From assembly GCA_964437785.1 (NCBI GenBank), contig CAYTJL010000046.1, positions 16,610 to 32,338 of the forward strand: 15,729 nucleotides of DNA, written 5' to 3'. Positions 2,352-15,411 of the stretch are shown here, one piece after another. The stretch is from an uncultured Polyangiaceae bacterium. Lineage in GTDB: Bacteria > Myxococcota_A > Polyangia > Polyangiales > Polyangiaceae. The first letter of the stretch is position 1; every line of letters begins with the position of its first letter. The notes under the pieces are model-generated. The model searched no databases and had not been told where the DNA came from. It saw nothing but the letters and a program-made list of their open reading frames with translations. The translations under genes and the position numbers were made by a program.

Positions 2352-3002
2352 TCAGTCGGGTCGCTCGATGGGCAGGCCCTCGGCCTCCCACGCGAGAAAA
2401 CCACCTTCGAGGAAGCCTACGGGGATGCCGCTGTCCGCGAGCTTCTGGGCGAGGTCTTTGGTCTTGTCGCCCGAGCGGCAGTACACGACGGGCGCGCCCG
2501 GCAACATGTGGAGCTCGGCCAAACGGTTCTCGATCTCGTCGATGGGCATGTTGACCGCGCTCGGGATGCGCGCGCGGCCAAACGTCGGAGCCTCGCGCGT
2601 GTCGACGGGGACGGCTTGGCCCTCACGGATGAGCTGCGCCAGCTCCATCGCACGGATCGCGCCCTCGGCGCGCGGGAGGAAGGGCTCGACGAGCTCGCGG
2701 AGCTGGTTGCGCCGCAGCACGCCTTGATCGGCGGCGACCGGCCGGCCCTTGAAGAACACCATGAACATGGGCACGGCTTGCACGCGCAGCATGGTGGCGA
2801 TGCGCTTGCTTCGATCGATGTCGATCTTGACCACCTTCGCTTTGCCTTCGAGCTCACGCGCGACCGCGTCGACCTCGGGAGCGACGGTTTTGCAGGGAGC
2901 GCACCAATCGGCGGTAAAGTCGATGAGGACAGGGAGCTCGCTCTTGATGACCTCGCGCTCGAAGGTCTGCTCCGTGACGAACGGGATGGGAGAGCCGGGC
3001 AT
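2352..3002 (-). CDS. thioredoxin domain fused to a C-terminal rhodanese-like domain
   Basis: 216 aa starting at the ATG (CAT 3000-3002), [18 protein letters not shown].... It has the Trx active site WCAPCK and a C-terminal rhodanese loop [10 protein letters not shown]. The track ORF extension to 3368 is Arg/Ala-rich and overlaps the methyltransferase gene, so I rejected it. Confidence 0.85.
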
Positions 3003-3019
3003 GGGGCCGACCCTTAGTG

Positions 3020-4690
<1,671 letters not shown>

Positions 4691-4691
<1 letters not shown>

Positions 4692-5389
4692 CACAGTTGA
4701 CAATCCACCCATGAGACGAACGCGCTCCTGTTGATGGCCTCGGCCGAGCACCGCTTTTTGTCGCGCGAGGTGTTCCACTCGCAATACTCTTTGCCGAGCT
4801 GCGCGAACTCGTTACCGAGCCACAAGAGGCCAACCTGCTTGTCGAGGTCGGGCTCCTTGAATTTGTCGGACAAGAAGAAGAGCACCGAGTTGGCGCGCTT
4901 GTGCGAGAGCGTCCGGTTGAAGTCGGCGCCGCCGGTCTTGGACGCGCGCGCCACGACGAAGAAGTACCGCGCGCCGCGCCGGTCGGTCCACAGCTCCTCG
5001 ATCATCTTCTTGGCGCCCTCGTCGAGCTTCTCGGCGCCGTCGTCGAACATGATGACCGCCCCGCGCGACTTGAGCGGCGTAAAGAGCGCGTTGAAGTCAT
5101 CATCGCTGATCTGCGCGAGCGACTTCACGTCGGCCGGCTGGCACCCCCGCCGCTCCTGCCCGCCCACGAGCCCACAGGCGTGCAGCACCTTCTCGAGCAC
5201 CGTCTTGAACTGCGGTGTGCAATAAGGCGCCTCCGCGTCGTTGGCGATGGCCGCTTTGGGCTTCTTGTCCTCGGTCACGCCCGTGCGGAGGCGCACCGCC
5301 GCGTCGCTCACCTCGGCCTTGACCACCAGCGTGCTCGCCGCGATGAGCACGCACCCAATCGTAAGACCGATGACCCCAGCGCCCTTCAT
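4691..5389 (-). CDS. membrane-anchored Cys-rich protein with OmpA_C-like domain
   Basis: 232 aa with an N-terminal TM helix (GVIGLTIGCVLIAASTLVV). FVVARASKTGGADFNRTLSHKRANSVLFFL resembles the OmpA/MotB peptidoglycan-binding signature (N..LS..RA..V..L). It has eight Cys and a GAGGTG Shine-Dalgarno sequence upstream of the ATG. Confidence 0.6.
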
Positions 5390-5393
5390 GATG

Positions 5394-6671
5394 TCACCTC
5401 GCGACCAGCGCAGGGGCGAGCCTGCGCATCGTGTAGGAGAGGCCCATGTCCGTGTCTTCGTCGCAGAGCTTCGTGTCGCCGATGAAGACCTGCGGCGTCG
5501 AGACCGGCAGTTGATTGGCGATGATGAAGCGCAGCATCCTATGGAGACGTTGCGTCGTGTCTTTGCTGTCGATGCAGGTGTCGAGCCCGGGCCACGCCGC
5601 CGCGATCATCGCGCGCACGTTGGGGATGCCGCCGCCCGCCTTGGCCGCGGCCAAGATGTCGTCTTGGTTGTCATAGGCCCACTCCAAGACGCGCATGGCG
5701 CGGTGCTCGCTGCACAAGATGGCTTTGGTCACCGCGCACGAGCCCGGGTGAAGGGGCCTATCCAGCATCCAATTGCAGTCGCTGTCGAGCGGGAAGAGCA
5801 CCAGCGTCATGTCGAGTTGATCCAAAAAGCCCTCCGCGCTGAGCCTTTTGTGGAGCGCTTTGCACGTCGGGCAGAGCGGATCGACGAACAACGTGGCCGG
5901 CTGCTTGGCGCCCGGAGGCGTGAAGTGGAGCAGCGTGCTCGGCGGCTCGGCCGGCTTCGGGAGCTTGCCGCACGCGGTGATCACCGTGGTGTAGCTGGGC
6001 AGCGCGCTCACGTAGAGACCCGCCGGCGTCACCGACGCGACCGCGAGCGCGACCGCCCACGCGGCGACCTGCCAGAGCTGCCCATCGGGCCGGAGCCCGG
6101 GCGGCAGGACCTCGTCGAACGACGTCTTGGCCGCGTCGGGGATGGGCCCGGGATCGCGCCGATCGCGCTCGGCGCGCGCGTCGACCACGACGCCGATCCA
6201 CCCGAAGATCGCGAGCGACGCCGACGCGATGTAGATGCCCGTGCACGTCTTGCAGAACTGGCCGAGCTTGGTCGCCGAGATAAAGGCCATGAGGCCCGAC
6301 ACGAGGAGCGGGCTCGTCGCCATGATCGCGAAGAAGCGCGGCGCACGCCGCGGCGCGCGCGTCCCTGCGAGCGAGAGGTAGAGCGCGAACGCGGCGAAGA
6401 ACGAGAAGGCCCCGAGCGCGAAGAGCGAGATGGGGACGCCGCCCCAATACCGATCGCGGAAGAGCGCGGCGTACGGGCTGTACATCGCCGCGCGGCACGC
6501 GTTGTCTTTGGAGGCCGGGGCGGCGCCGGGGATGTACGAGCAGTGGACGTCGTGCATCTGCCGATCGAGGTGGCGCGCATAGTCGTTCGAGGACAAAGCC
6601 GCGAAGAAGAGGCCGAACAGGCACGCCACGAACGCGAGCACAAAGGGCCAGCGCTGCCCTACTGCTTTCAT
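5394..6671 (-). CDS. vitamin K epoxide reductase (VKOR)-family membrane protein fused to a DsbA-like thioredoxin domain
   Basis: The N-terminal half has multiple TM helices, loop cysteines (HCSY...NAC) and an in-membrane CKTC motif typical of bacterial VKOR homologues. The C-terminal half has CPTC in a DsbA-like context (LFVDPLCPTCKALH). I chose the ATG start (CAT 6669-6671); the track ORF start at 6707 is a TTG codon and remains possible. Confidence 0.8.
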   Translation of the reverse strand: MKAVGQRWPFVLAFVACLFGLFFAALSSNDYARHLDRQMHDVHCSYIPGAAPASKDNACRAAMYSPYAALFRDRYWGGVPISLFALGAFSFFAAFALYLSLAGTRAPRRAPRFFAIMATSPLLVSGLMAFISATKLGQFCKTCTGIYIASASLAIFGWIGVVVDARAERDRRDPGPIPDAAKTSFDEVLPPGLRPDGQLWQVAAWAVALAVASVTPAGLYVSALPSYTTVITACGKLPKPAEPPSTLLHFTPPGAKQPATLFVDPLCPTCKALHKRLSAEGFLDQLDMTLVLFPLDSDCNWMLDRPLHPGSCAVTKAILCSEHRAMRVLEWAYDNQDDILAAAKAGGGIPNVRAMIAAAWPGLDTCIDSKDTTQRLHRMLRFIIANQLPVSTPQVFIGDTKLCDEDTDMGLSYTMRRLAPALVAR

Positions 6672-7398: not shown

Positions 7399-8016
7399 AT
7401 GACAGACATCCGCGCCGGCACCATCGTCCCCTCCACACGGGATTTGCTCCAAGCCCTCTCCCGGCGGCGAAAGGCGCTCGCGCTCGTGCCGCTCCTCCTG
7501 CCCGAGCGCGCCGCGGAGGACGCGGCGCACCTCGACGCGGCCAACGCGCCTGCGTTCGCGATGGAGGCGCCGGGGCCGGCGATGGTGGCCGCTGCGCGCG
7601 CCACGCGATCGATCCCGATGTTGAGCCTCGCGTTGGCCGAAGCGGCGGACGACGCGCTCTTCGCGCGACAAAACGGCGCGGACGGCGCGTGCGCTCCGCT
7701 CGCGTCGTGGGCGGACGTCTCCGCCGCGATCAAGTCCACGCGGATGGCGCCGCTCGCGTGGGCCACGTCGATCGACGCGTGCAAACAGGCCGTCGCCGCG
7801 GGCGCCAAAGGCATCGTGATCCGGGCGGGCTCCGTCCGCGAGGCCGCGTCGATCGCCGCAGAAGCGCCGCGCGGGCCGGTGATCGTCGTGTGGGTCGACG
7901 ATCTCGACGAGGCGGGCGCGCGATCGCTCGTCGGTGTGGCCGACGCGGCGATCGCGCCGGCCTCGCTCTATGCTTCAACGAGCTTCGCGTCGCTCATCGA
8001 GGAGGTGGATCCGTGA
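7399..8016 (+). CDS. hypothetical protein, distant indole-3-glycerol-phosphate-synthase-like TIM-barrel resemblance
   Basis: 205 aa, Ala-rich, ATG at 7399. Segments such as ARQNGADG, AVAAGAKGIVIR and GVADAAIAPASLY loosely parallel IGPS strand-loop blocks, but catalytic residues are not evident. Its stop overlaps the ygfZ GTG start (GTGA at 8013-8016). Confidence 0.45.
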   Translation: MTDIRAGTIVPSTRDLLQALSRRRKALALVPLLLPERAAEDAAHLDAANAPAFAMEAPGPAMVAAARATRSIPMLSLALAEAADDALFARQNGADGACAPLASWADVSAAIKSTRMAPLAWATSIDACKQAVAAGAKGIVIRAGSVREAASIAAEAPRGPVIVVWVDDLDEAGARSLVGVADAAIAPASLYASTSFASLIEEVDP

Positions 8017-8918
8017 CAGGCTTGGTGCTTCATCCGCGGCCGGATCTCGCGGTCTTCACCGCGCGCGGCGCCGATCGCGCGCGTTGGCTCAACGGCCTCG
8101 TCACGTGTGATCTCGCGATCCGAAAGCCGGGCGAGGGGGCTTATGGCCTCTCGGTCGGCAAGACGGGGAAGATCCTCGCCGAGCTCTGGGTGCTCTTCGG
8201 CGACGACGCGCTCACCGTGGTCGTCTCCGGCGCGATCGCCGAGCGCGTGCGCGACACCTTCGATCGTCATTTGATTATGGAGGACGTCGAGCTCGGCGAG
8301 ATCGAGCCGCGCGGCGTCGTCTTCGCGCACGCGGGCGGCCCGATCGAGGCCAAGGCGCTCGTCGCGCGCGCCCGATCGCTCGGCGCCGAGGCCGCGATCG
8401 TCGATTGGACCGGGCGCGGCGATGCGGTGGTGATCGTCGCGAACGAGCCTGCCGCGGCGCTCGCGGCGACGATCGCAGGCGCGGGGGGAGCGCGCGTGAT
8501 CGACGACGCCGCGTGGGAGCCGCTCCGCCTCGCGTGGGGATTGCCCCGCTTCGGCGTCGACTTCGACGATCAATCGCTCCCTCAAGAGGCCTCGTTGGAG
8601 AAGGTGGCCGTGAGCTTCACCAAGGGGTGTTACCTCGGCCAAGAGACGGTCTTCATGGTGGAGAAGCGGGGTCACGTCAAAAAGCGCCTCATGCGCCTCA
8701 CGGTCCAAGGCGATGAGGCGCTCGACCGGAGCGCTCCTCTTACGTTGCCTTCCGGCGAAGAGGTCGGCTCCATCACGAGCGCGGCGATCGTCGACGGGTC
8801 ATGGGCCGCGCTCGGTCACGTCAAATACAAACATGCCAATCCGGGCGTAGAGCTCGTCGTCTCCGGGCGTACCGTGAACGTGGTCGGGCCGGCGGCCGAG
8901 CCTATCGCCCCGACCTGA
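8013..8918 (+). CDS. ygfZ: folate-binding YgfZ/GcvT-like protein (Fe-S cluster repair/tRNA modification associated)
   Basis: It carries the YgfZ signature KGCYLGQE (FTKGCYLGQETVFMVEKRG) and an aminomethyltransferase-like N-terminal fold. The GTG start at 8013 is in frame with the track ORF 7689..8918, whose upstream part overlaps the preceding gene. Confidence 0.8.
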   Translation: MTGLVLHPRPDLAVFTARGADRARWLNGLVTCDLAIRKPGEGAYGLSVGKTGKILAELWVLFGDDALTVVVSGAIAERVRDTFDRHLIMEDVELGEIEPRGVVFAHAGGPIEAKALVARARSLGAEAAIVDWTGRGDAVVIVANEPAAALAATIAGAGGARVIDDAAWEPLRLAWGLPRFGVDFDDQSLPQEASLEKVAVSFTKGCYLGQETVFMVEKRGHVKKRLMRLTVQGDEALDRSAPLTLPSGEEVGSITSAAIVDGSWAALGHVKYKHANPGVELVVSGRTVNVVGPAAEPIAPT

Positions 8919-9867: not shown

Positions 9868-9897
9868 CCGAGCGCCTCGAACGGTCGAGGCGTGATT

Positions 9898-9969
9898 GGA
9901 CCCGTCTCTCAATGGTCGAGTCGCCGCCTTTTAAGCGGTCATATAGGGGTTCGAGTCCCCTCGGGTCCG
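9898..9969 (+). tRNA. tRNA-Lys(TTT)
   Basis: Acceptor GGACCCG/CGGGTCC; anticodon stem GCCGC/GCGGT with loop CTTTTAA; T arm AGGGG-TTCGAGT-CCCCT. The D stem TCTC/GAGT has a T:T at 10:25. Confidence 0.8.
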
Positions 9970-10430: not shown

Positions 10431-10506
10431 GGCCCGTTCATCTAGCGGTCAGGATCCTGGTCTTTCAAACCAGTGTGGAGGGGTTCGACTCCCCTACGGG
10501 CTACCA
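10431..10506 (+). tRNA. tRNA-Glu(TTC), CCA encoded
   Basis: Acceptor GGCCCGT/ACGGGCT (G1:U72). The D arm has the Glu-type 3-bp stem, ATC-TAGCGGTCAG-GAT. Anticodon stem CTGGT/ACCAG with loop CTTTCAA; T arm AGGGG-TTCGACT-CCCCT; discriminator A followed by CCA (10504-10506). Confidence 0.85.
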
Positions 10507-10742: not shown

Positions 10743-12374
10743 ATGGTGAGCTATGCCAAGCACTTCACGGCGCTCTTCACGCCGCAGCGGGAGAAGGCCC
10801 GTTCGGATCAGGTGAAGAACAACGCCGGAGGGTTCGTGTTCGAGCTCGGCCTCTGGCCCAAGCTCGATCGGTGGCTCATCCTCGGGTGCGAGGGTGGGTC
10901 GTATTACGCGACCGAGCGCGCGATGACCCTCGACAACGCAAAGACGGTCCTCGCGTGCTTGGCCAAGGACGGCCTCCGCACCGTCGCGCGCATCGTCGAG
11001 GTGAGCCGCGACGGGCGCGCGCCCAAGAACGCTCCCGCGGTGTTCGCGCTCGCCATGGCCTCCGCGGACACCGCCATTGACGTCCGCCGCGCGGCGCTCG
11101 CGGCGATCCCCGAGGTGTGCCGCACCGGTACGGATCTCTTCCACTTCGTCCGCGACGTGGAGGGCTTTCGCCGTTGGGGCCGCGGTCTCCGCAAGGCGGT
11201 CGCGGCGTGGTACAACGACAAGCCCATTCAGAGGCTCGCGTACCAGGCCCTCAAGTACCGCTCCCGCGACGGGTGGAGCCACCGTGACGTGCTGAGGCTC
11301 GCTCACCCCACGGCGCCGACACCGGAGCACCAGGCGCTTTATCGCTGGATCACCGGCGGTATGGAGGGGCTCCTCAAGGAGCCCACGAAGGGCGCGCCGG
11401 TCGAGCTCGACAAGCTGCCTGCGATGGTCACCGCGTTCGAGGCGCTCCAGGCGTCCAAGGACAAGAAGACCACGTTGGCGCTCATCCGGGAGCACCGTTT
11501 CACCCACGAGATGCTGCTCACCGAGTGGAAGAACGATCCCGACGTCTGGGAGGCGCTGCTCGAGGACATGCCTTTGACAGCGCTCCTCCGCAACCTCGGG
11601 AAGATGACCGCGGTCGGCCTCTTTGGCTCGTTCTCGTCCACGACGCGCAGGGTCGCGCGGCAAATCACGGACGCTCCGCGGCTCAAGAGGTCTCGTGTCC
11701 ACCCGGTCGCGCTGCTCTCGGCCCTCAAGGTCTATGAGCAGGGCCACGGCGAGCGAGCCATGCGGCGCGACAACGCGCTCTCATGGAAGCCCGCGCGCGA
11801 GATCGTGGACGCCTTGAACGACGCGTTTTATCTGTCGTTCAAGACCATCGATCCGACCGGCAAGCGGCACCTCCTGGCGCTCGACGTCTCGGGCTCCATG
11901 TGCGGGGGCACCATCGCCGGCGTCCCCGGCCTCTCCCCCCGCGTGGGGAGCGCGGCCATGGCGCTCGCGACAGCCAAGGTCGAGCCCTTCTATGATGTGG
12001 TCGGGTTCACGGGATCGCTCACGCGGCTCGGGATCTCCGCACATCAAAGGCTCGATGACGTGCTGAAGAGGGTGGATGGCCTGCCCTTCGGGAGCACCGA
12101 TTGCGCCTTGCCGATGATCTGGGCCAAGGAGAACAAGGTCGAGGTCGACACGTTCGTGGTCTACACGGACAACGAGACGTGGTTTGGGAAGGTCCACCCG
12201 TTCCAAGCGCTGCGCGATTACCGCCAGGCGACTGGGCGGGCGGCCAAGCTGGTCGTGGTCGGGATGACCGCCACGGGCTTCACCATCGCAGACCCGTCCG
12301 ACGCAGGGATGCTCGATGTGGTCGGCTTCGACGCGGCAGCGCCCGCGCTGATGGCCGATTTCGCGAGGGCATGA
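10743..12374 (+). CDS. rsr: Ro 60-kDa ribonucleoprotein orthologue (TROVE domain plus vWA/MIDAS domain), Rsr
   Basis: 543 aa with a strong Shine-Dalgarno AAGGAGG (10731-10737) 5 nt before the ATG. By my recollection of vertebrate Ro60, several blocks are near-identical: GCEGGSYY, WSHRDVLRLAHP, MPLTALLRNLGKMTA, GSTDCALPMIWA, VVYTDNETW, GFTIADPSDAGMLDVVGFD. The MIDAS motif is LDVSGSM. The gene starts 60 nt after tRNA-Pro. Confidence 0.95.
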   Translation: MVSYAKHFTALFTPQREKARSDQVKNNAGGFVFELGLWPKLDRWLILGCEGGSYYATERAMTLDNAKTVLACLAKDGLRTVARIVEVSRDGRAPKNAPAVFALAMASADTAIDVRRAALAAIPEVCRTGTDLFHFVRDVEGFRRWGRGLRKAVAAWYNDKPIQRLAYQALKYRSRDGWSHRDVLRLAHPTAPTPEHQALYRWITGGMEGLLKEPTKGAPVELDKLPAMVTAFEALQASKDKKTTLALIREHRFTHEMLLTEWKNDPDVWEALLEDMPLTALLRNLGKMTAVGLFGSFSSTTRRVARQITDAPRLKRSRVHPVALLSALKVYEQGHGERAMRRDNALSWKPAREIVDALNDAFYLSFKTIDPTGKRHLLALDVSGSMCGGTIAGVPGLSPRVGSAAMALATAKVEPFYDVVGFTGSLTRLGISAHQRLDDVLKRVDGLPFGSTDCALPMIWAKENKVEVDTFVVYTDNETWFGKVHPFQALRDYRQATGRAAKLVVVGMTATGFTIADPSDAGMLDVVGFDAAAPALMADFARA

Positions 12375-12380
12375 CCCTCT

Positions 12381-12420
12381 GAGGTGAGCCGCTTGGGCAA
12401 GAGCAGCTCACCTCGTTTAT
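12381..12420 (+). terminator. hairpin 6 nt after the rsr stop (attenuator, processing site or weak terminator)
   Basis: GAGGTGAGC (12381-12389) pairs with GCTCACCTC (12406-12414) and is followed only by GTTTAT. The next tRNA starts at 12421, so read-through or processing is likely. Confidence 0.3.
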
Positions 12421-12493
12421 ACCCCCGAGCCGACCTGGACTCGGAGCCGGTCTCCTAAACCGGAAGAAGCGGGTTCGAATCCCGCCGGGGGTG
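12421..12493 (+). tRNA. tRNA-Arg(CCT), slightly non-canonical
   Basis: Acceptor ACCCCCG/CGGGGGT (A1:U72); D arm CCGA-CCTGGAC-TCGG; anticodon stem CCGGT/ACCGG with loop CTCCTAA; T arm GCGGG-TTCGAAT-CCCGC. Two nt (AG) separate the D and anticodon stems, and position 8 is A. Confidence 0.65.
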
Positions 12494-12499
12494 CCGCAC

Positions 12500-12624
12500 G
12501 CCGTTGTAGCTCAGCCTGGTAGAGCACCTAAAACACCGTCTCTAATGTTTGCCTGCGAGGGCCGGTCAGGGATGGTTATCACTTTTCCAGTGGGATGACG
12601 CGGGTTCAAATCCCGTCAACGGCG
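12500..12624 (+). ncRNA. tRNA-like RNA with ~51-nt expansion between D arm and anticodon-like hairpin
   Basis: It has a canonical acceptor GCCGTTG/CAACGGC, D arm GCTC-AGCCTGGTA-GAGC and T arm GCGGG-TTCAAAT-CCCGT. However, 73 nt (12527-12599) occupy the space of a 22-nt anticodon arm plus variable loop. The only anticodon-like hairpin is ATCAC-TTTTCCA-GTGGG (12578-12594), with a pyrimidine at position 37. Confidence 0.6.
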
Positions 12625-12778
12625 CCGGATAGTAGAAGCCGTCTCATAAATCGTCGCGAGCGCCCCGATCACGTGTCCGAGCGAGAACCGGAGCGGAGAA
12701 TACTCCCGTATTTGAGCACCGGAAGCGCAGCGAGGACACGTCAGCGGGGCGCGCAGCAGATTTATGAGACGGCTTCTA
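12622..12778 (+). ncRNA. 157-nt extended imperfect hairpin with 20-bp perfect terminal helix (candidate Y-RNA-like ligand of Rsr, or MITE-like inverted repeat)
   Basis: TAGAAGCCGTCTCATAAATC (12622-12641) is the exact reverse complement of 12759-12778. Inner helices are GCGCCCCG/CGGGGCGC, ACGTGTCC/GGACACGT and CCGG/CCGG, with apical GGAG-AATA-CTCC. The third helix contains GUCCGA. Confidence 0.55.
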
Positions 12779-13081
12779 GACGATCGCTCGTGGATCGGAG
12801 GGGGTCATCGCGCATCGGGGGATTCGGAGGGCCACAGGTCGCTCCGTCGGGGACAGCCTCGCTCTGACACGTGGACCCGCATCACATGGAGGACGAGACG
12901 TCGCAAGTCCCCTCCTCCGCTCACGTGGCCCTCGCTCACCCCGCTCGCACGATAATCCCCCTCCGCCCACTTCGCTCGCGCTGTTGCAGCACTGTTTTTC
13001 AGGGCGATTCGAGCGATAACGCTGGCTTAATAGATGGCTAGATAAAAAGACGGGTGAAGAAAAAAGAATGAACCAAGTAGG

Positions 13082-13110
13082 TTGACAGAGCGTCTAAGAG
13101 AACATAAAAG
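13082..13110 (+). promoter_or_regulatory. sigma70-type promoter, cassette copy 1 (TTGACA-N17-TAAAAG)
   Basis: TTGACA at 13082-13087 and TAAAAG at 13105-13110, preceded by A-rich tracts (13041-13068). It lies within the ~40-bp repeat 13069-13108, which has a near-identical copy at 13225-13264. The predicted start is at or next to the tRNA 5' end (13118). Confidence 0.6.
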
Positions 13111-13117
13111 ATATCGA

Positions 13118-13190
13118 GTCTTCGATGTGCCCCCGGCGGGGCAGCCTGATTGTCGATCAGGTGAATGGGGTTCGACTCCCCTCGAAGACG
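13118..13190 (+). tRNA. tRNA-Asp(GTC)-like, non-canonical D region
   Basis: Acceptor GTCTTCG/CGAAGAC; anticodon stem CCTGA/TCAGG with loop TTGTCGA; T arm TGGGG-TTCGACT-CCCCT (T:T at 49:65). There is a 3-nt 8/9 linker (ATG) and a G/C-only D hairpin TGCC(C)-CCGGCG-(G)GGCA. Confidence 0.55.
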
Positions 13191-13237
13191 CCGCGAAGAA
13201 AAGAGCAAGGGAGATAAAAAAGAGTGAACCAAATAGG

Positions 13238-13266
13238 TTGACAGAGCGTCTAAGAGAACATAAGAT
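13238..13266 (+). promoter_or_regulatory. sigma70-type promoter, cassette copy 2 (TTGACA-N17-TAAGAT)
   Basis: TTGACA at 13238-13243 and TAAGAT at 13261-13266, preceded by A-rich tracts (13197-13224). The 17-nt spacer GAGCGTCTAAGAGAACA is identical to that of copy 1. Confidence 0.65.
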
Positions 13267-13285
13267 AAGACGCGCTGGGGGACAT

Positions 13286-13356
13286 AGGGTGTAGAGTCAA
13301 GGTGACCGCGGAGCCTCCAAATCTCCGGCGAGAGGGTTCGATTCCTTCACACCCTG
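13286..13356 (+). tRNA. tRNA-Trp(CCA)
   Basis: Acceptor AGGGTGT/ACACCCT (A1:U72) with discriminator G, as I recall for enterobacterial tRNA-Trp. The anticodon loop is CTCCAAA in stem CGGAG(C)/(T)CTCCG; T arm GAGGG-TTCGATT-CCTTC. The D arm is reduced to (A)GTC-AAGGT-GAC(C). Confidence 0.65.
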
Positions 13357-13449
13357 CCGGCGGGCCGGCGCTCGCGCGTTATCGGTGCTCGTGGCACGAG
13401 GTCGGTCGCGCGACGAAACCTCGTCCGTCTTCACGTCACATTGGTGTTT

Positions 13450-13521
13450 GCCCTCGTATGCCTCTGGTGAGGCAGCCTGACTGTCGATCAGGTGAGGGGA
13501 GTTCGATCCTCCTCGGGGGCG
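13450..13521 (+). tRNA. tRNA-Asp(GTC)
   Basis: Acceptor GCCCTCG/CGGGGGC (U5:G68); D arm TGCC-TCTGGTGA-GGCA; anticodon stem CCTGA/TCAGG with loop CTGTCGA; T arm GGGAG-TTCGATC-CTCCT; discriminator G. Confidence 0.85.
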
Positions 13522-13587
13522 CCGGGCCGCGGGCGTTGGGTTATCCTCTTAAGATACCCCCCAGCACCCTTCTTTTGTCCGATCTAT

Positions 13588-13658: not shown

Positions 13659-13672
13659 CCCATGGGCCGATT

Positions 13673-13741
13673 GTGTTGGGTTATCGGTTGATAGCCTGAA
13701 ACGCTGGCCGGGTCAAACCGGCCGTCCCAACACGTATTTTT
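13673..13741 (+). terminator. factor-independent terminator candidate
   Basis: The outer stem GTGTTGGG (13673-13680) / CCCAACAC (13726-13733) encloses the GGCCGG-GTCAAA-CCGGCC hairpin and is followed directly by GTATTTTT (13734-13741). Confidence 0.6.
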
Positions 13742-13773
13742 GCCCAGGTCTCCTTTCAGATATCGTATTTGTC

Positions 13774-13845: not shown

Positions 13846-14060
13846 CCGGGACGAGCCGACCTCACGAGCAAGGAGCTCGATGGGAATCGCGTTCGCCCAC
13901 CAACTTCGCCGCCGGGCGCCGGATCCGTTCAATCGGTTCCACTTGTGTTTGTTCCCTGCTCGATTGGAGCAGGTTTCGCTGCCGAGGCCCAGAGAGCGGG
14001 GCGCCCGTTTGGTATGCGGGAGACGGTGAGTGCAATTCTCGCGGGCAGCTCGATAGTAAC

Positions 14061-15073: not shown

Positions 15074-15270
15074 CAAACATGCGCCGGCTCTCTACCCGTG
15101 CCCCCTCCCGCTCGCGGACGACACCGGTACTCACGCGCTCGTTCAGGAAACCACCCACGTTGAAAATGGGTCCGTAATTAAAACGGAACGACGAACCTCG
15201 AGCTCGTACCCTCTCCGGTGTCCCCGCGCGCCTCTCTCACCCGGGGAACTTTCGTGTCGGTTCAGAGACA

Positions 15271-15347
15271 TCGGCCTTTCCAGCCGAAGGTGCTGGTTCG
15301 ATTCCAGCTCGCCCCACTCTACGGGGCGATGGTCCAATGGTAGGACA
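15271..15347 (+). ncRNA. circularly permuted tRNA-like element (anticodon-like hairpin, T arm, closed acceptor hairpin, D arm)
   Basis: The element reads TCGGC-CTTTCCA-GCCGA (15271-15287), AGGT, T arm GCTGG-TTCGATT-CCAGC. Then TCGCCCC (15309-15315) is closed by loop ACTCTAC onto GGGGCGA (15323-15329), followed by TG and D arm GTCC-AATGGTA-GGAC (15332-15346). Joining 15323-15347 in front of 15271-15316 gives a perfect 71-nt cloverleaf. Confidence 0.6.
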
Positions 15348-15366
15348 TCAAAAACGACCCGAGCTC

Positions 15367-15383
15367 TATCCCCGGTTTTTTTT
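15367..15383 (+). terminator. U8 tract ending the RNA array (terminator candidate)
   Basis: TATCCCCGG is followed by TTTTTTTT (15376-15383). TCCCCGG can pair with CCGGGGA (15241-15247), or ATCCCCG with CGGGG(C)GAT (15322-15330). Confidence 0.45.
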
Positions 15384-15411
15384 CAAACAACCAACAAGGA
15401 GCGATCAACCC

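What the first reader, a model, noticed from the sequence alone, without database searches (positions are those of the whole stretch)
15168..15383. Circularly permuted tRNA-like element with YrlA-like topology, a Ro-site-like bulged helix and a U8 terminator
Seen: the order is anticodon-like hairpin (15271-15287), T arm (15292-15308), a perfect 7-bp acceptor helix closed by a 7-nt loop (TCGCCCC-ACTCTAC-GGGGCGA, 15309-15329), TG, and a canonical D arm (15332-15346). Rotating the sequence yields a flawless 71-nt cloverleaf, whereas the normal-order 5' acceptor strand upstream (GGGGAAC, 15243-15249) pairs at only 4 of 7 positions. The element ends in TTTTTTTT (15376-15383). Further out, GGGTC-C-GT (15168-15175) can pair with AC-GACCC (15354-15360), leaving a single bulged C. 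By my recollection this mimics the conserved GGUC(C)GA / UUGAC Ro-binding helix of Y RNAs. Established: YrlA-type bacterial Y RNAs are single chains whose ends form the Ro-binding stem while a tRNA-like domain sits at the other end, which requires this permuted order. Inference: this is the best YrlA-like Rsr ligand candidate in the window. The alternative is a decayed, rearranged tRNA gene remnant. About 95 nt with extra hairpins lie between the 5' strand and the T arm, more than I would expect for YrlA. The 7-bp bulged helix could also be chance.
Basis: partly seen in the sequence, partly recalled or inferred. Interest (0 to 1): 0.72.

Follow-up and report, generated by a model that had tools for sequence, protein, structure and literature searches.

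The report
Permuted tRNA-like Y RNA candidate
At the end of a tRNA gene array next to a Ro60/Rsr gene lies a ~140-nt element built like a bacterial YrlA Y RNA (a tRNA turned inside out on a long stem), but it lacks the usual Rsr-binding motif, and the same window holds better Rsr-partner candidates.

Summary
The tRNA-like parts are real. An anticodon-like hairpin, T arm, perfect 7-bp closed acceptor, UG, D arm and U8 sit exactly where stated. The rotated sequence is called tRNA-Glu(UUC) by ARAGORN.

The window encodes Ro60/Rsr (10743-12374) 2.9 kb upstream on the same strand. A covariance model built from 8 rsr-adjacent YrlA RNAs of other loci, window excluded, makes 15239-15377 the best hit in the window. 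It scores 41.8 bits over the full model length. Tandem-tRNA artefacts reach about 34 bits.

The architecture matches phage YrlAs: two-part basal stem, V hairpin, T arm, closed acceptor, D arm. I therefore support the YrlA-like topology, with different boundaries (about 15241-15383).

The proposed Ro-site helix (15168-75/15354-60) is not supported. It is no better than chance, is absent from all minimum-free-energy (MFE) folds, and its 5' strand sits inside a separate hairpin (15110-15231).

The basal stem lacks the clade's GNCGAA(N)G motif. No homologous locus was found, so covariation is untested.

It is not the best Rsr ligand in the window. 12500-12624 belongs to a conserved, covarying family of tRNA-order Y RNAs that carry the motif, and mini-Y RNAs lie at 13523-13585 and about 13663-13745.

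Verdict: probable new YrlA-family member, or a young tRNA-derived one; function unproven.

The parts
15241..15247 (+). Helix 1, 5' strand (CCGGGGA); pairs with 15369-15375
   Evidence: MFE folds; CM R2 alignment. Flank duplex -23.4 kcal/mol versus -14.6 +/- 3.1 in shuffles, reached by 14 of 2000.
15251..15259 (+). Helix 2, 5' strand (UUCG-U-GUCG); pairs with 15355-15363 with one U.C mismatch. It is followed by GGUU, as in the GGUUAYC motif of YrlA and mini-Y RNAs.
   Evidence: Compared with Cashline, L029 and L025 elements.
15260..15270 (+). Single-stranded linker GUUCAGAGACA, in the position of the YUAY linker of YrlA (here UUCA, not YUAY)
15271..15287 (+). Anticodon-arm-like hairpin (5 bp, loop CUUUCCA), in the position of the YrlA 'V' stem-loop. 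Position 37 is C, not a purine.
15288..15291 (+). Variable-loop equivalent AGGU. U15291 can form the 15:48 Levitt pair with A15337. GCCGAAG (15283-15289) happens to match GNCGAAG but is misplaced for a Y-stem motif.
   Evidence: Direct reading; weak nhmmer match, -1.1 bits
15292..15308 (+). T arm GCUGG-UUCGAUU-CCAGC
15309..15329 (+). Closed acceptor stem, 7 bp (UCGCCCC / GGGGCGA), with the 7-nt loop ACUCUAC. By analogy with M. smegmatis YrlA, RNase P would be predicted to cut 5' of G15323.
   Evidence: Analogy from PMC4201824.
15330..15346 (+). UG linker (positions 8-9) plus D arm GUCC-AAUGGUA-GGAC
15347..15354 (+). Linker AUCAAAAA between the D arm and the 3' strand of helix 2
15355..15363 (+). 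Helix 2, 3' strand (CGAC-C-CGAG)
15369..15375 (+). Helix 1, 3' strand (UCCCCGG)
15376..15383 (+). U8 run directly after helix 1; probable intrinsic terminator and 3' end of the tRNA/Y RNA array. A Shine-Dalgarno sequence (AAGGAG, 15396-15401) and an ATG (15412) of a + strand gene follow.
   Evidence: GC3 is 0.87 in the frame of the downstream ORF.
10743..12374 (+). Ro60/Rsr gene (543 aa), the presumed protein partner of the Y RNAs in this array
   Evidence: Pfam TROVE 2.2e-41 and vWA_Ro60 2e-64; about 70% identity to Polyangiaceae Rsr

Best explanation
Window 15241-15383 (+) most likely encodes a ~140-nt YrlA-type non-coding RNA, that is, a circularly permuted tRNA-like domain carried on a stem formed by its own 5' and 3' ends.

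Shown:
- The sequence folds as helix 1 (7 bp), an internal loop, helix 2 (4+4 bp), then a junction carrying an anticodon-arm-like 'V' hairpin, T arm, closed 7-bp acceptor and D arm.
- All nucleotides needed for the tRNA elbow and core triples are present.
- Helix 1 is followed directly by U8.
- It is the last unit of a tRNA/Y RNA array, 2.9 kb downstream of rsr on the same strand.

Inferred:
- It is co-transcribed with the array and terminated at U8.
- It folds into an L-shape that tRNA enzymes recognise. With a 7-bp acceptor and an A-C after it, RNase P cleavage 5' of G15323 and CCA addition are expected, as for M. smegmatis YrlA.
- It acts as a tRNA-mimic module of the Rsr system.

Rsr binding is the weakest step, because the clade's GNCGAA(N)G motif is missing from the basal stem (it reads GGGGAAC). 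The tRNA-like core is of ordinary tRNA type (Glu/Pro-like arms), not the conserved YrlA T/D-stem type. This suggests a young or independently derived member.
For: - Rsr ORF in the window.
- CM R2 was built from 8 rsr-adjacent YrlAs of other loci (95.9% of cells paired, 32 of 37 pairs compensatory) without the window. Its best hit in the whole window is 15239-15377: 41.8 bits, E about 2e-7, model positions 1-131.
- The core alone scores 33.5 bits, so the stems add about 8 bits.
- In 794 kb of tRNA-rich loci, tandem-tRNA artefacts score about 34 bits or less. An intact tandem pair with the same T/D arm type (L055) scores 30.8.
- A single-sequence model from Gordonia phage Cashline YrlA also aligns the element full-length (16.5 bits, E 0.014).
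- Fold of 15236-15384: -56.6 kcal/mol, z = -3.05. The same structure appears in the 310-nt fold.
- Flank complementarity is reached by 14 of 2000 shuffles.
- The architecture equals that of the Cashline, L029 and Catera YrlAs.
- Rfam YrlA gives a partial hit of 26.1 bits. Accepted phage-type YrlAs also score only 36-42 bits against the gathering threshold of 69.
- Criteria and precedents come from PMC4201824 and bioRxiv 10.1101/312249.
Against: - No homologous locus was found, so there is no covariation or conservation evidence for this element.
- The GNCGAAN0-1G motif is absent from the stem.
- The T/D stems (GCUGG, GUCC) and the UG linker differ from the strongly conserved YrlA versions.
- A sequence-only HMM of YrlAs scores it 20.0 bits, within the range of artificially permuted ordinary tRNAs (up to 22.5).
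- Flank similarity to the clade's mini-Y stems is only marginal.
- The margin over false positives is about 8-11 bits.
- There are no expression data.
Confidence: 0.5

Rival explanations
1. It is a non-functional by-product of tRNA-array rearrangement. Either two tandem copies of one tRNA-Glu-like gene lost their outer halves, or a unit-length permuted segment was inserted. The perfect closed acceptor is then simply the 3' acceptor strand of copy 1 facing the identical 5' strand of copy 2.
For: - Tandem identical tRNAs with perfect T arm, 'closed acceptor' and D arm junctions are common in related loci (L055, L036, L041, L049, L054).
- Rfam tRNA gives a partial normal-order hit at 15256-15308 (27 bits), with a degenerate D-like arm upstream.
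- C37 in the anticodon loop and the lack of the Rsr motif fit relaxed constraint.
- A sequence-only HMM cannot tell it from a permuted tRNA.
- No conservation is demonstrated.
Against: - The flanks show no significant similarity to the missing tRNA halves (1262/5000 and 3955/5000 shuffles reach the score). Meanwhile the 76-nt core has 21 of 21 intact pairs and all tertiary nucleotides. This asymmetry is unexpected under uniform decay.
- The flanks pair with each other beyond chance (14 of 2000), in the YrlA two-helix layout.
- The element scores 11 bits above intact tandem pairs in the YrlA model.
- Helix 1 plus U8 forms a proper 3' end.
Confidence: 0.3
2. It is mainly the 3'-terminal processing and termination module of the polycistronic tRNA array. 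A tRNA-like fold recruits RNase P/Z to trim the last precursor, and a GC-rich closing stem plus U8 stops transcription before the downstream protein gene. No Rsr-related role is needed.
For: - It is the last structured unit before U8.
- It is followed by a Shine-Dalgarno sequence and an ATG with GC3 of 0.87.
- No other terminator-like site lies on the + strand at the array end.
- tRNA-like 3'-end modules cleaved by RNase P are known for lncRNAs (cited in bioRxiv 10.1101/312249).
Against: - A 121-nt insert between the two arms of a terminator stem is atypical, and the consensus terminator scan did not call it.
- This reading does not explain the YrlA-like two-helix stem.
- It is compatible with, rather than exclusive of, the YrlA reading.
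Confidence: 0.15
3. One reading: a ~216-nt RNA (15168-15383) whose ends form a metazoan-type Ro-binding helix, GGGUC(C)GU / AC-GACCC, with a bulged C.
For: - GGUCCG (15169-15174) is identical to six bases of the animal Y RNA motif.
- It can pair with CGACC leaving a bulged C.
- Y RNAs up to ~220 nt are known.
Against: - The helix is no better than chance (1000 of 1000 shuffles).
- It is absent from the MFE and centroid folds.
- Its 5' strand lies in the apical part of an independent hairpin, 15110-15231 (z = -3.0).
- Its 3' strand is used by helix 2.
- It would leave 15 unpaired nucleotides before U8.
- The Rsr motif of this clade is GGG(U/C)CGAA(N)G, not GGUCCGA.
Confidence: 0.05

Closest known systems
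YrlA (Rfam RF02553), bacterial and phage Y RNA-like RNAs (Chen et al. 2014, PMC4201824), especially M. smegmatis YrlA and the actinophage YrlAs (Catera/ET08 type, Gordonia phage Cashline)
   Same: - Encoded within 4 kb of rsr on the same strand.
- The 5' and 3' ends pair into a two-part stem.
- V stem-loop, T arm, closed acceptor-like stem-loop and D arm occur in that order.
- tRNA tertiary nucleotides are present, including an A15:U48 Levitt pair.
- Length is about 140 nt (M. smegmatis YrlA is about 147 nt).
- It has a 7-bp acceptor, like M. smegmatis.
- It ends in a U-run.
   Different: - There is no GNCGAAN0-1G motif in the stem.
- The T stem is GCUGG/CCAGC and the D stem GUCC/GGAC, with a UG linker. 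YrlAs have the conserved GCGGG/CCCGC, GCUC/GAGC and UA.
- The V arm is a complete anticodon arm, so the rotated sequence is a flawless cloverleaf.
- It lies 2.9 kb downstream of rsr at the end of a tRNA array, not next to rsr.
- It is below Rfam's gathering score, as are accepted phage YrlAs.
Circularly permuted tRNA genes of Cyanidioschyzon merolae and some other algae and archaea (Soma et al. 2007; cited in bioRxiv 10.1101/312249)
   Same: - The 3' half is encoded upstream of the 5' half.
- The acceptor stem is initially closed by a loop.
- The termini are paired.
- The rotated sequence is a perfect cloverleaf.
   Different: - There is no bulge-helix-bulge motif at the junction.
- Bacteria and phages are not known to have the splicing endonuclease.
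- The break lies between positions 26 and 27, not in the anticodon loop.
- C37 argues against a decoding tRNA.
- The array already encodes tRNA-Glu(UUC) at 10431-10506.
tRNA-order Y RNAs found here (window 12500-12624 and 32 relatives downstream of rsr in Polyangiaceae-type loci), and the mini-Y (YrlB-like) RNAs of the same loci
   Same: - Same array and same strand.
- Same tRNA-like elbow idea.
- Helix 2 followed by GGUU.
- The 3' strand ends ...UAUCC(N)CGG followed by U-rich sequence, like the mini-Ys (...UUAUCCGUCCUCUUU).
   Different: - Those RNAs carry the conserved CGGG(C/U)CGAA(N)G and CUUGCCCG strands, and they covary.
- The tRNA-order family has open acceptor ends and a closed Y stem. 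The element studied here has the opposite arrangement and lacks the motif.

Membership tests
YrlA (Y RNA-like A) | Encoded within about 4 kb of a Ro60/Rsr (TROVE) gene, on the same strand | tested here: met
   The rsr gene is at 10743-12374 (+). The element starts 2,867 nt downstream on the + strand.
YrlA (Y RNA-like A) | tRNA-like domain in permuted order: (V), T arm, closed acceptor-like stem-loop, two-nucleotide linker, D arm | tested here: met
   Rfam YrlA positions 30-81 align.
YrlA (Y RNA-like A) | Nucleotides for tRNA tertiary contacts (U8, A14, G18G19, A21, G53, U54U55C56, A58, C61, 15:48 Levitt pair, 13-22-46 and 10-25-45 triples) | tested here: met
   Read directly: U15330, A15336, G15339-40, A15342, UUCGA T loop, A15337:U15291, C13-G22-G46, G10-C25-G45.
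YrlA (Y RNA-like A) | The 5' and 3' ends base-pair into a long stem that carries the Rsr site | tested here: inconclusive
   The stem is predicted. It is beyond chance at about 0.7% and adds about 8 bits in the CM. There are no homologs for covariation.
YrlA (Y RNA-like A) | GNCGAAN0-1G motif near the 5' end in the stem | tested here: not met
   The stem has GGGGAAC (15243-49). Exact or near matches lie elsewhere: GCCGAAG at 15283-89 in the V arm, and GACGAAC at 15190-96 outside the RNA. The clade consensus is GGG(U/C)CGAA(N)G.
YrlA (Y RNA-like A) | Strongly conserved T and D stem sequences and UA linker (GCGGG/CCCGC, GCUC/GAGC) | tested here: not met
   The element has GCUGG/CCAGC, GUCC/GGAC and UG. 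One accepted-type member (L029 13300-13431) also has a GUC./GGAC-type D arm.
YrlA (Y RNA-like A) | Score against family covariance models | tested here: inconclusive
   Rfam RF02553 gives 26.1 bits against a gathering score of 69. Catera and Cashline YrlAs score only 36.1 and 42.2, and tandem tRNAs reach 33.9. My own model R2 gives 41.8 bits full-length, is the top hit in the window, and lies above tandem-tRNA artefacts of about 34 bits or less.
YrlA (Y RNA-like A) | Bound by Rsr; expressed as a discrete RNA | not testable with these tools
   No expression or binding data are available.
Circularly permuted tRNA gene (algal/archaeal type) | Bulge-helix-bulge motif at the paired termini, allowing excision and circularisation | tested here: not met
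   The junction has 11-nt and 8-nt single strands on the same side of a 4-bp helix. There is no BHB geometry.
Circularly permuted tRNA gene (algal/archaeal type) | Rotated sequence is a functional decoding tRNA (purine at position 37, and so on) | tested here: not met
   The cloverleaf is perfect, but position 37 is C. A normal tRNA-Glu(UUC) exists at 10431-10506.
Animal / Deinococcus-type Y RNA Ro site | Conserved GGUC(C)GA / UUGACC bulged helix in the stem formed by the RNA ends | tested here: not met
   GGGUCCGU / ACGACCC can be drawn, but it is no better than chance. It is not in any predicted fold, and its 5' strand lies inside another hairpin.
Intrinsic (Rho-independent) terminator | GC-rich stem immediately followed by a U-run | tested here: inconclusive
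   A 7-bp stem with 6 GC pairs is directly followed by U8. However, the 'loop' is 121 nt, and the consensus scan did not call it.

The most novel reading that the evidence does not exclude
The element may be a recently and independently born YrlA, caught midway on the proposed path from a tRNA dimer to a Y RNA. It still has a complete anticodon arm and ordinary tRNA-type arms, has already closed its ends into a Y-like stem, and has not yet acquired (or has just lost) the Rsr motif.

It shares one array with an apparently undescribed family of unpermuted, tRNA-order Y RNAs (12500-12624 and relatives) and with mini-Y RNAs. Taken together, the locus would show that Y RNAs interconvert between tRNA-order, permuted and stem-only topologies within tRNA arrays.
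Probability: 0.3. Interest if true: 0.7.

Novelty: new member of a known kind. Interest (0 to 1): 0.42.

Why it matters
If it is expressed, this would be a YrlA-type RNA whose tRNA-like module is still a complete, ordinary cloverleaf. That makes it a concrete test case for the proposal that bacterial Y RNAs arose from dimeric tRNA transcripts.

It would also test whether Rsr binding needs the GNCGAA motif.

More broadly, the locus gives three RNA designs to compare experimentally with one Rsr protein: the tRNA-order Y RNA, the mini-Y RNAs and this permuted element. If it is only a rearranged tRNA remnant, the finding is ordinary.

Tried and rejected
Homolog searches for the element, all negative:
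- megablast and blastn against phage records
- exact and degenerate DNA patterns in viral, metagenome and genome collections; a looser pattern returned only tandem tRNAs and two unrelated YrlA-like modules
- blastn and nhmmer against all 56 fetched loci, which found only generic T-loop and D-loop similarity

Attempts to reach the element through neighbouring genes:
- The downstream ORF (15412 onward) has no relatives in the protein database or in viral contigs.
- Exact look-ups of spurious ORFs overlapping the region found nothing.
- Contigs carrying the identical or 97%-identical Rsr stop before the element.

Ideas rejected or set aside:
- Recent duplication of another tRNA in the window. The best identity is about 50 of 71, which is background.
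- Flanks as decayed halves of the same tRNA. The similarity is not significant.
- A MAFFT-based alignment of YrlAs and mini-Ys was structurally inconsistent. I used model-based alignments instead.
- nhmmer on short 'stem-only' constructs returned nothing, even for true members, so I disregarded it.
- PHROGs and Pfam annotation of neighbouring genes did not settle whether the window is from a phage or a cellular island.

Full report
**1. Setting**

The window has about 68% G+C. From about 9.6 kb to 15.1 kb it carries a + strand array of at least 22 tRNA genes by ARAGORN and a few more by Rfam.

In the middle of the array, ORF 10743-12374 (+) is a Ro60/Rsr orthologue (Pfam TROVE 2.2e-41, vWA_Ro60 2e-64).
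- Its closest relatives, at about 70% identity, are Rsr proteins of Polyangiaceae such as Sorangium, Minicystis and Chondromyces.
- Known phage Ro proteins are at most 51% identical.
- Neighbouring genes give no phage hallmark, so I cannot tell whether this is a phage or a cellular island.
- Related rsr loci in Sorangium chromosomes and MAGs are also embedded in tRNA arrays.

**2. The observation**

- hairpin 15271-87
- T arm 15292-308
- perfect 7-bp stem 15309-15/15323-29 with a 7-nt loop
- UG, then D arm 15332-46
- U8 at 15376-83

Rotating the sequence gives a 71-nt cloverleaf that ARAGORN calls tRNA-Glu(UUC). Position 37 is C, which is unusual for a decoding tRNA. Neither ARAGORN nor Rfam calls a tRNA at the native site. 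Rfam gives two partial matches: tRNA positions 10-63 at 27 bits, and YrlA positions 30-81 at 26.1 bits.

The tertiary-contact nucleotides of a class I tRNA are all there, including an A15:U48 Levitt pair. That is one of the two combinations reported for YrlAs (PMC4201824).

**3. The proposed Ro-site helix fails**

GGGUC-C-GU (15168-75) with AC-GACCC (15354-60) is worth -9.9 kcal/mol.
- All 1000 dinucleotide shuffles of the 155-nt upstream spacer gave an equally good duplex with the real 3' flank.
- The helix is absent from the fold of 15160-15385, which is itself not better than shuffles (z = -1.04).
- When the whole spacer plus element (15075-15384) is folded, two separate domains appear. The other is the element proper at 15241-15375.

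**4. A better-supported anatomy**

The fold of 15236-15384 has dG -56.6 kcal/mol and z = -3.05 (1 of 200 shuffles reaches it). Its parts are:
- helix 1: CCGGGGA (15241-47) with UCCCCGG (15369-75)
- helix 2: UUCG-U-GUCG (15251-59) with CGAC-C-CGAG (15355-63)
- a junction carrying the hairpin, T arm, closed acceptor and D arm
- U8 immediately after helix 1

The two flanks pair with each other at -23.4 kcal/mol, against -14.6 +/- 3.1 for shuffled flanks (14 of 2000 reach it).

This is the same layout as the YrlA-like RNAs next to rsr in Gordonia phage Cashline, mycobacteriophage Catera and a metagenomic locus, L029. Those have helix 1, an internal loop, helix 2, a GGUUAYC linker, a V hairpin, T arm, closed acceptor, D arm, a 7-9-nt linker, and the return strands. 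The length of about 140 nt matches M. smegmatis YrlA (about 147 nt), which also has a 7-bp acceptor and is cut by RNase P and CCA-tailed in vivo (PMC4201824).

**5. Membership test with independent models**

Rfam's YrlA gathering score (69 bits) is not a usable criterion here. Catera- and Cashline-type YrlAs score 36.1 and 42.2 bits, and adjacent tRNA pairs in this window score up to 33.9.

I therefore built a model from Cashline YrlA (R1) and collected 8 full-length matches next to rsr genes in five other loci. Their alignment has 95.9% of cells paired and 32 of 37 pairs with compensatory changes; slid controls give 38-47%. I then built R2 from that alignment, without any window sequence.

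With filters off:
- R2's best hit in the whole window is 15239-15377, at 41.8 bits, E about 2e-7, covering model positions 1-131, with exactly the anatomy above.
- The tRNA-like core alone scores 33.5 bits, so the stems contribute about 8 bits.

Across 794 kb of tRNA-rich loci, the hits that are plainly adjacent tRNAs score about 34 bits or less. An intact tandem pair with nearly the same T and D arms (L055 9596-9739) scores 30.8.

The element is therefore more YrlA-like than tRNA junctions, but by a modest margin. A sequence-only HMM of the same alignment gives it 20.0 bits, no better than artificially permuted ordinary tRNAs (up to 22.5).

**6. What is missing**

The Rsr-associated motif GNCGAAN0-1G (PMC4201824) is very clear in this clade. 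It reads CGGG(U/C)CGAA(N)G, followed by helix 2 and GGUUAYC, in about 30 'mini-Y' RNAs and 33 tRNA-order Y RNAs from related loci.
- The element's stem has CCGGGGAAC at that place. The best pairwise alignment to one mini-Y (L025) needs a 2-nt gap that removes the 'UC'.
- Similarity of its flanks to the mini-Y family is marginal once multiple comparisons are allowed for: 7 of 1000 shuffles for the mean score, but 0.07-0.17 for the maximum scores, and 23 of 500 random window segments.
- Its T and D stems and its UG linker are not the conserved YrlA versions.
- No homologous locus could be found by any route. Contigs with the same or the 97%-identical Rsr end before it. Conservation and covariation of this particular element are therefore untested.

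**7. Origin**

Wang et al. (bioRxiv 10.1101/312249) summarise the model that YrlAs arose from dimeric tRNA transcripts.

This element looks like such a product: the T arm and 3' acceptor strand of one tRNA, then the 5' acceptor strand and D arm of an identical one. Tandem identical tRNAs are common in related loci.

However, the flanks have no significant similarity to the missing halves, while the 76-nt core is flawless. That fits either selection on the permuted unit or a recent one-step rearrangement. I cannot distinguish the two.

**8. Better Rsr partners in the same window**

(a) 12500-12624, just downstream of rsr after tRNA-Arg, was called a 125-nt 'tRNA' by Rfam. It has a normal open acceptor, D arm and T arm. 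Its anticodon arm is replaced by a 42-nt arm followed by GGUUAUC and a V hairpin.
- When circularly permuted, it matches the YrlA HMM at 44.2 bits over positions 8-114. It scores 25.8 bits in native order, and permuted ordinary tRNAs score 22.5 or less.
- A scan and a dedicated model (R3) found 33 such RNAs of 118-140 nt in 24 rsr loci. All are downstream of rsr on the same strand and score at least 55 bits, whereas ordinary tRNAs score 45 or less. The window copy scores 87.8 bits.
- Their alignment has 97.7% of cells paired and 21 of 30 pairs with compensatory changes; slid controls give 36-54%.
- The arm consists of helix 2, an internal loop made of CUUGCCCG and CGGGCCGAAG, and helix 1 closed by a short loop.
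- This is a Y RNA in tRNA order: open acceptor, closed Y stem. It is the mirror image of YrlA.

(b) Mini-Y (YrlB-like) RNAs lie at 13523-13585 (28.3 bits, E 2e-8 against the mini-Y HMM) and at about 13663-13745. They share a 22-nt 5' strand, GGGCCG...GGGUUAUC (D13; fold).

The statement that 15168-15383 is the best Rsr ligand candidate in the window is therefore not supported.

**9. Verdict**

The Ro-site helix is not supported.

The most likely reading (about 0.5) is a YrlA-type tRNA-mimic RNA that ends the array at an intrinsic terminator and is handled by tRNA enzymes. Its binding to Rsr is doubtful.

A non-functional rearranged tRNA (about 0.3) and a mere terminator or processing module (about 0.15) remain open.

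It is a new, atypical member of a known kind. The more novel item in the window is the tRNA-order Y RNA family.

Noticed in passing
window 12500-12624 (+); also L006 11752-11873, L007 6610-6734, L001 11807-11941 and about 29 others: A family of 118-140-nt tRNA-shaped RNAs lies directly downstream of rsr. Each has an open 7-bp acceptor, D arm and T arm. The anticodon arm is replaced by a Y RNA stem (helix 2, internal loop CUUGCCCG / CGGGCCGAAG, helix 1 closed by a short loop), followed by GGUUAYC and a V hairpin. In effect this is YrlA in unpermuted tRNA order. There are 33 members in 24 loci. The alignment has 97.7% of cells paired and 21 of 30 pairs compensatory. I found no description in the searchable literature.
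   Followed up: yes
window 13523-13585 and about 13663-13745 (+): Two mini-Y (YrlB-like) stem RNAs sit between tRNAs. They share the 5' strand GGGCCG(N6)UUGGGUUAUC. The first scores 28.3 bits (E 2e-8) against an HMM of 30 Polyangiaceae mini-Ys (D13).
   Followed up: partly
L037-L054 at about 9897-9967 (35-100 nt upstream of rsr) and about 12206-12575 (downstream): Sorangium and Chondromyces rsr loci carry conserved ~68-nt mini-Y RNAs with an exact GGGUCGAA(N)G or GGGCCGAAG motif, helix 2, GGUUAYC, and a 3' ...CUUAUCCGUCCUCUUU end.
   Followed up: partly
window 15110-15231 (+): An independent long irregular hairpin lies between tRNA-Trp and the element (-47.3 kcal/mol, z = -3.0). Both strands give only weak Y-model hits (13.5 and 3.3 bits). 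Its function is unknown.
   Followed up: partly
window 12633-12778: A ~146-nt palindromic insertion has perfect 20-bp terminal arms (TAGAAGCCGTCTCATAAATC / GATTTATGAGACGGCTTCTA). It is absent from the 97%-Rsr relative L007, which has about 20 unrelated bases there. It looks like a mobile hairpin (MITE-like) element.
   Followed up: no
window 13060-13107 and 13216-13263: Two 48-nt direct repeats (96% identical) each contain TTGACA-N17-TAAGAT-type promoter-like hexamers and each precede a tRNA. They are likely internal promoters of the array.
   Followed up: no
window about 13146-13162 versus L007: The anticodon stem of tRNA-Asp shows a compensatory U-A to C-G change between the window and L007 (CCTGATTGTCGATCAGG versus CCCGATTGTCGATCGGG). 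L007 also has an extra partial tRNA-like T-arm segment that the window lacks, near 13415.
   Followed up: no
L010 12720-12854 (-), IMG/VR contig with 36% G+C; L019 10471-10583; L016 about 7483-7546 (-): Unrelated viral contigs carry YrlA-like RNAs. The L010 copy has an 8-bp closed acceptor whose loop begins G-CCA, like an encoded tRNA 3' end.
   Followed up: no
window 13285-13356, 13450-13521, 13978-14050: Additional tRNA-like genes were found by Rfam but not by ARAGORN, with weak or atypical scores (28.9-48.3 bits).
   Followed up: no
window 8013-8918 (+) and 2352-6671 (-): Genes upstream of the array encode a GCV_T/YgfZ-like folate-binding protein, thioredoxin/rhodanese, an N6/N4 DNA methyltransferase, a redoxin and a VKOR-family protein. 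There are no phage structural genes.
   Followed up: no
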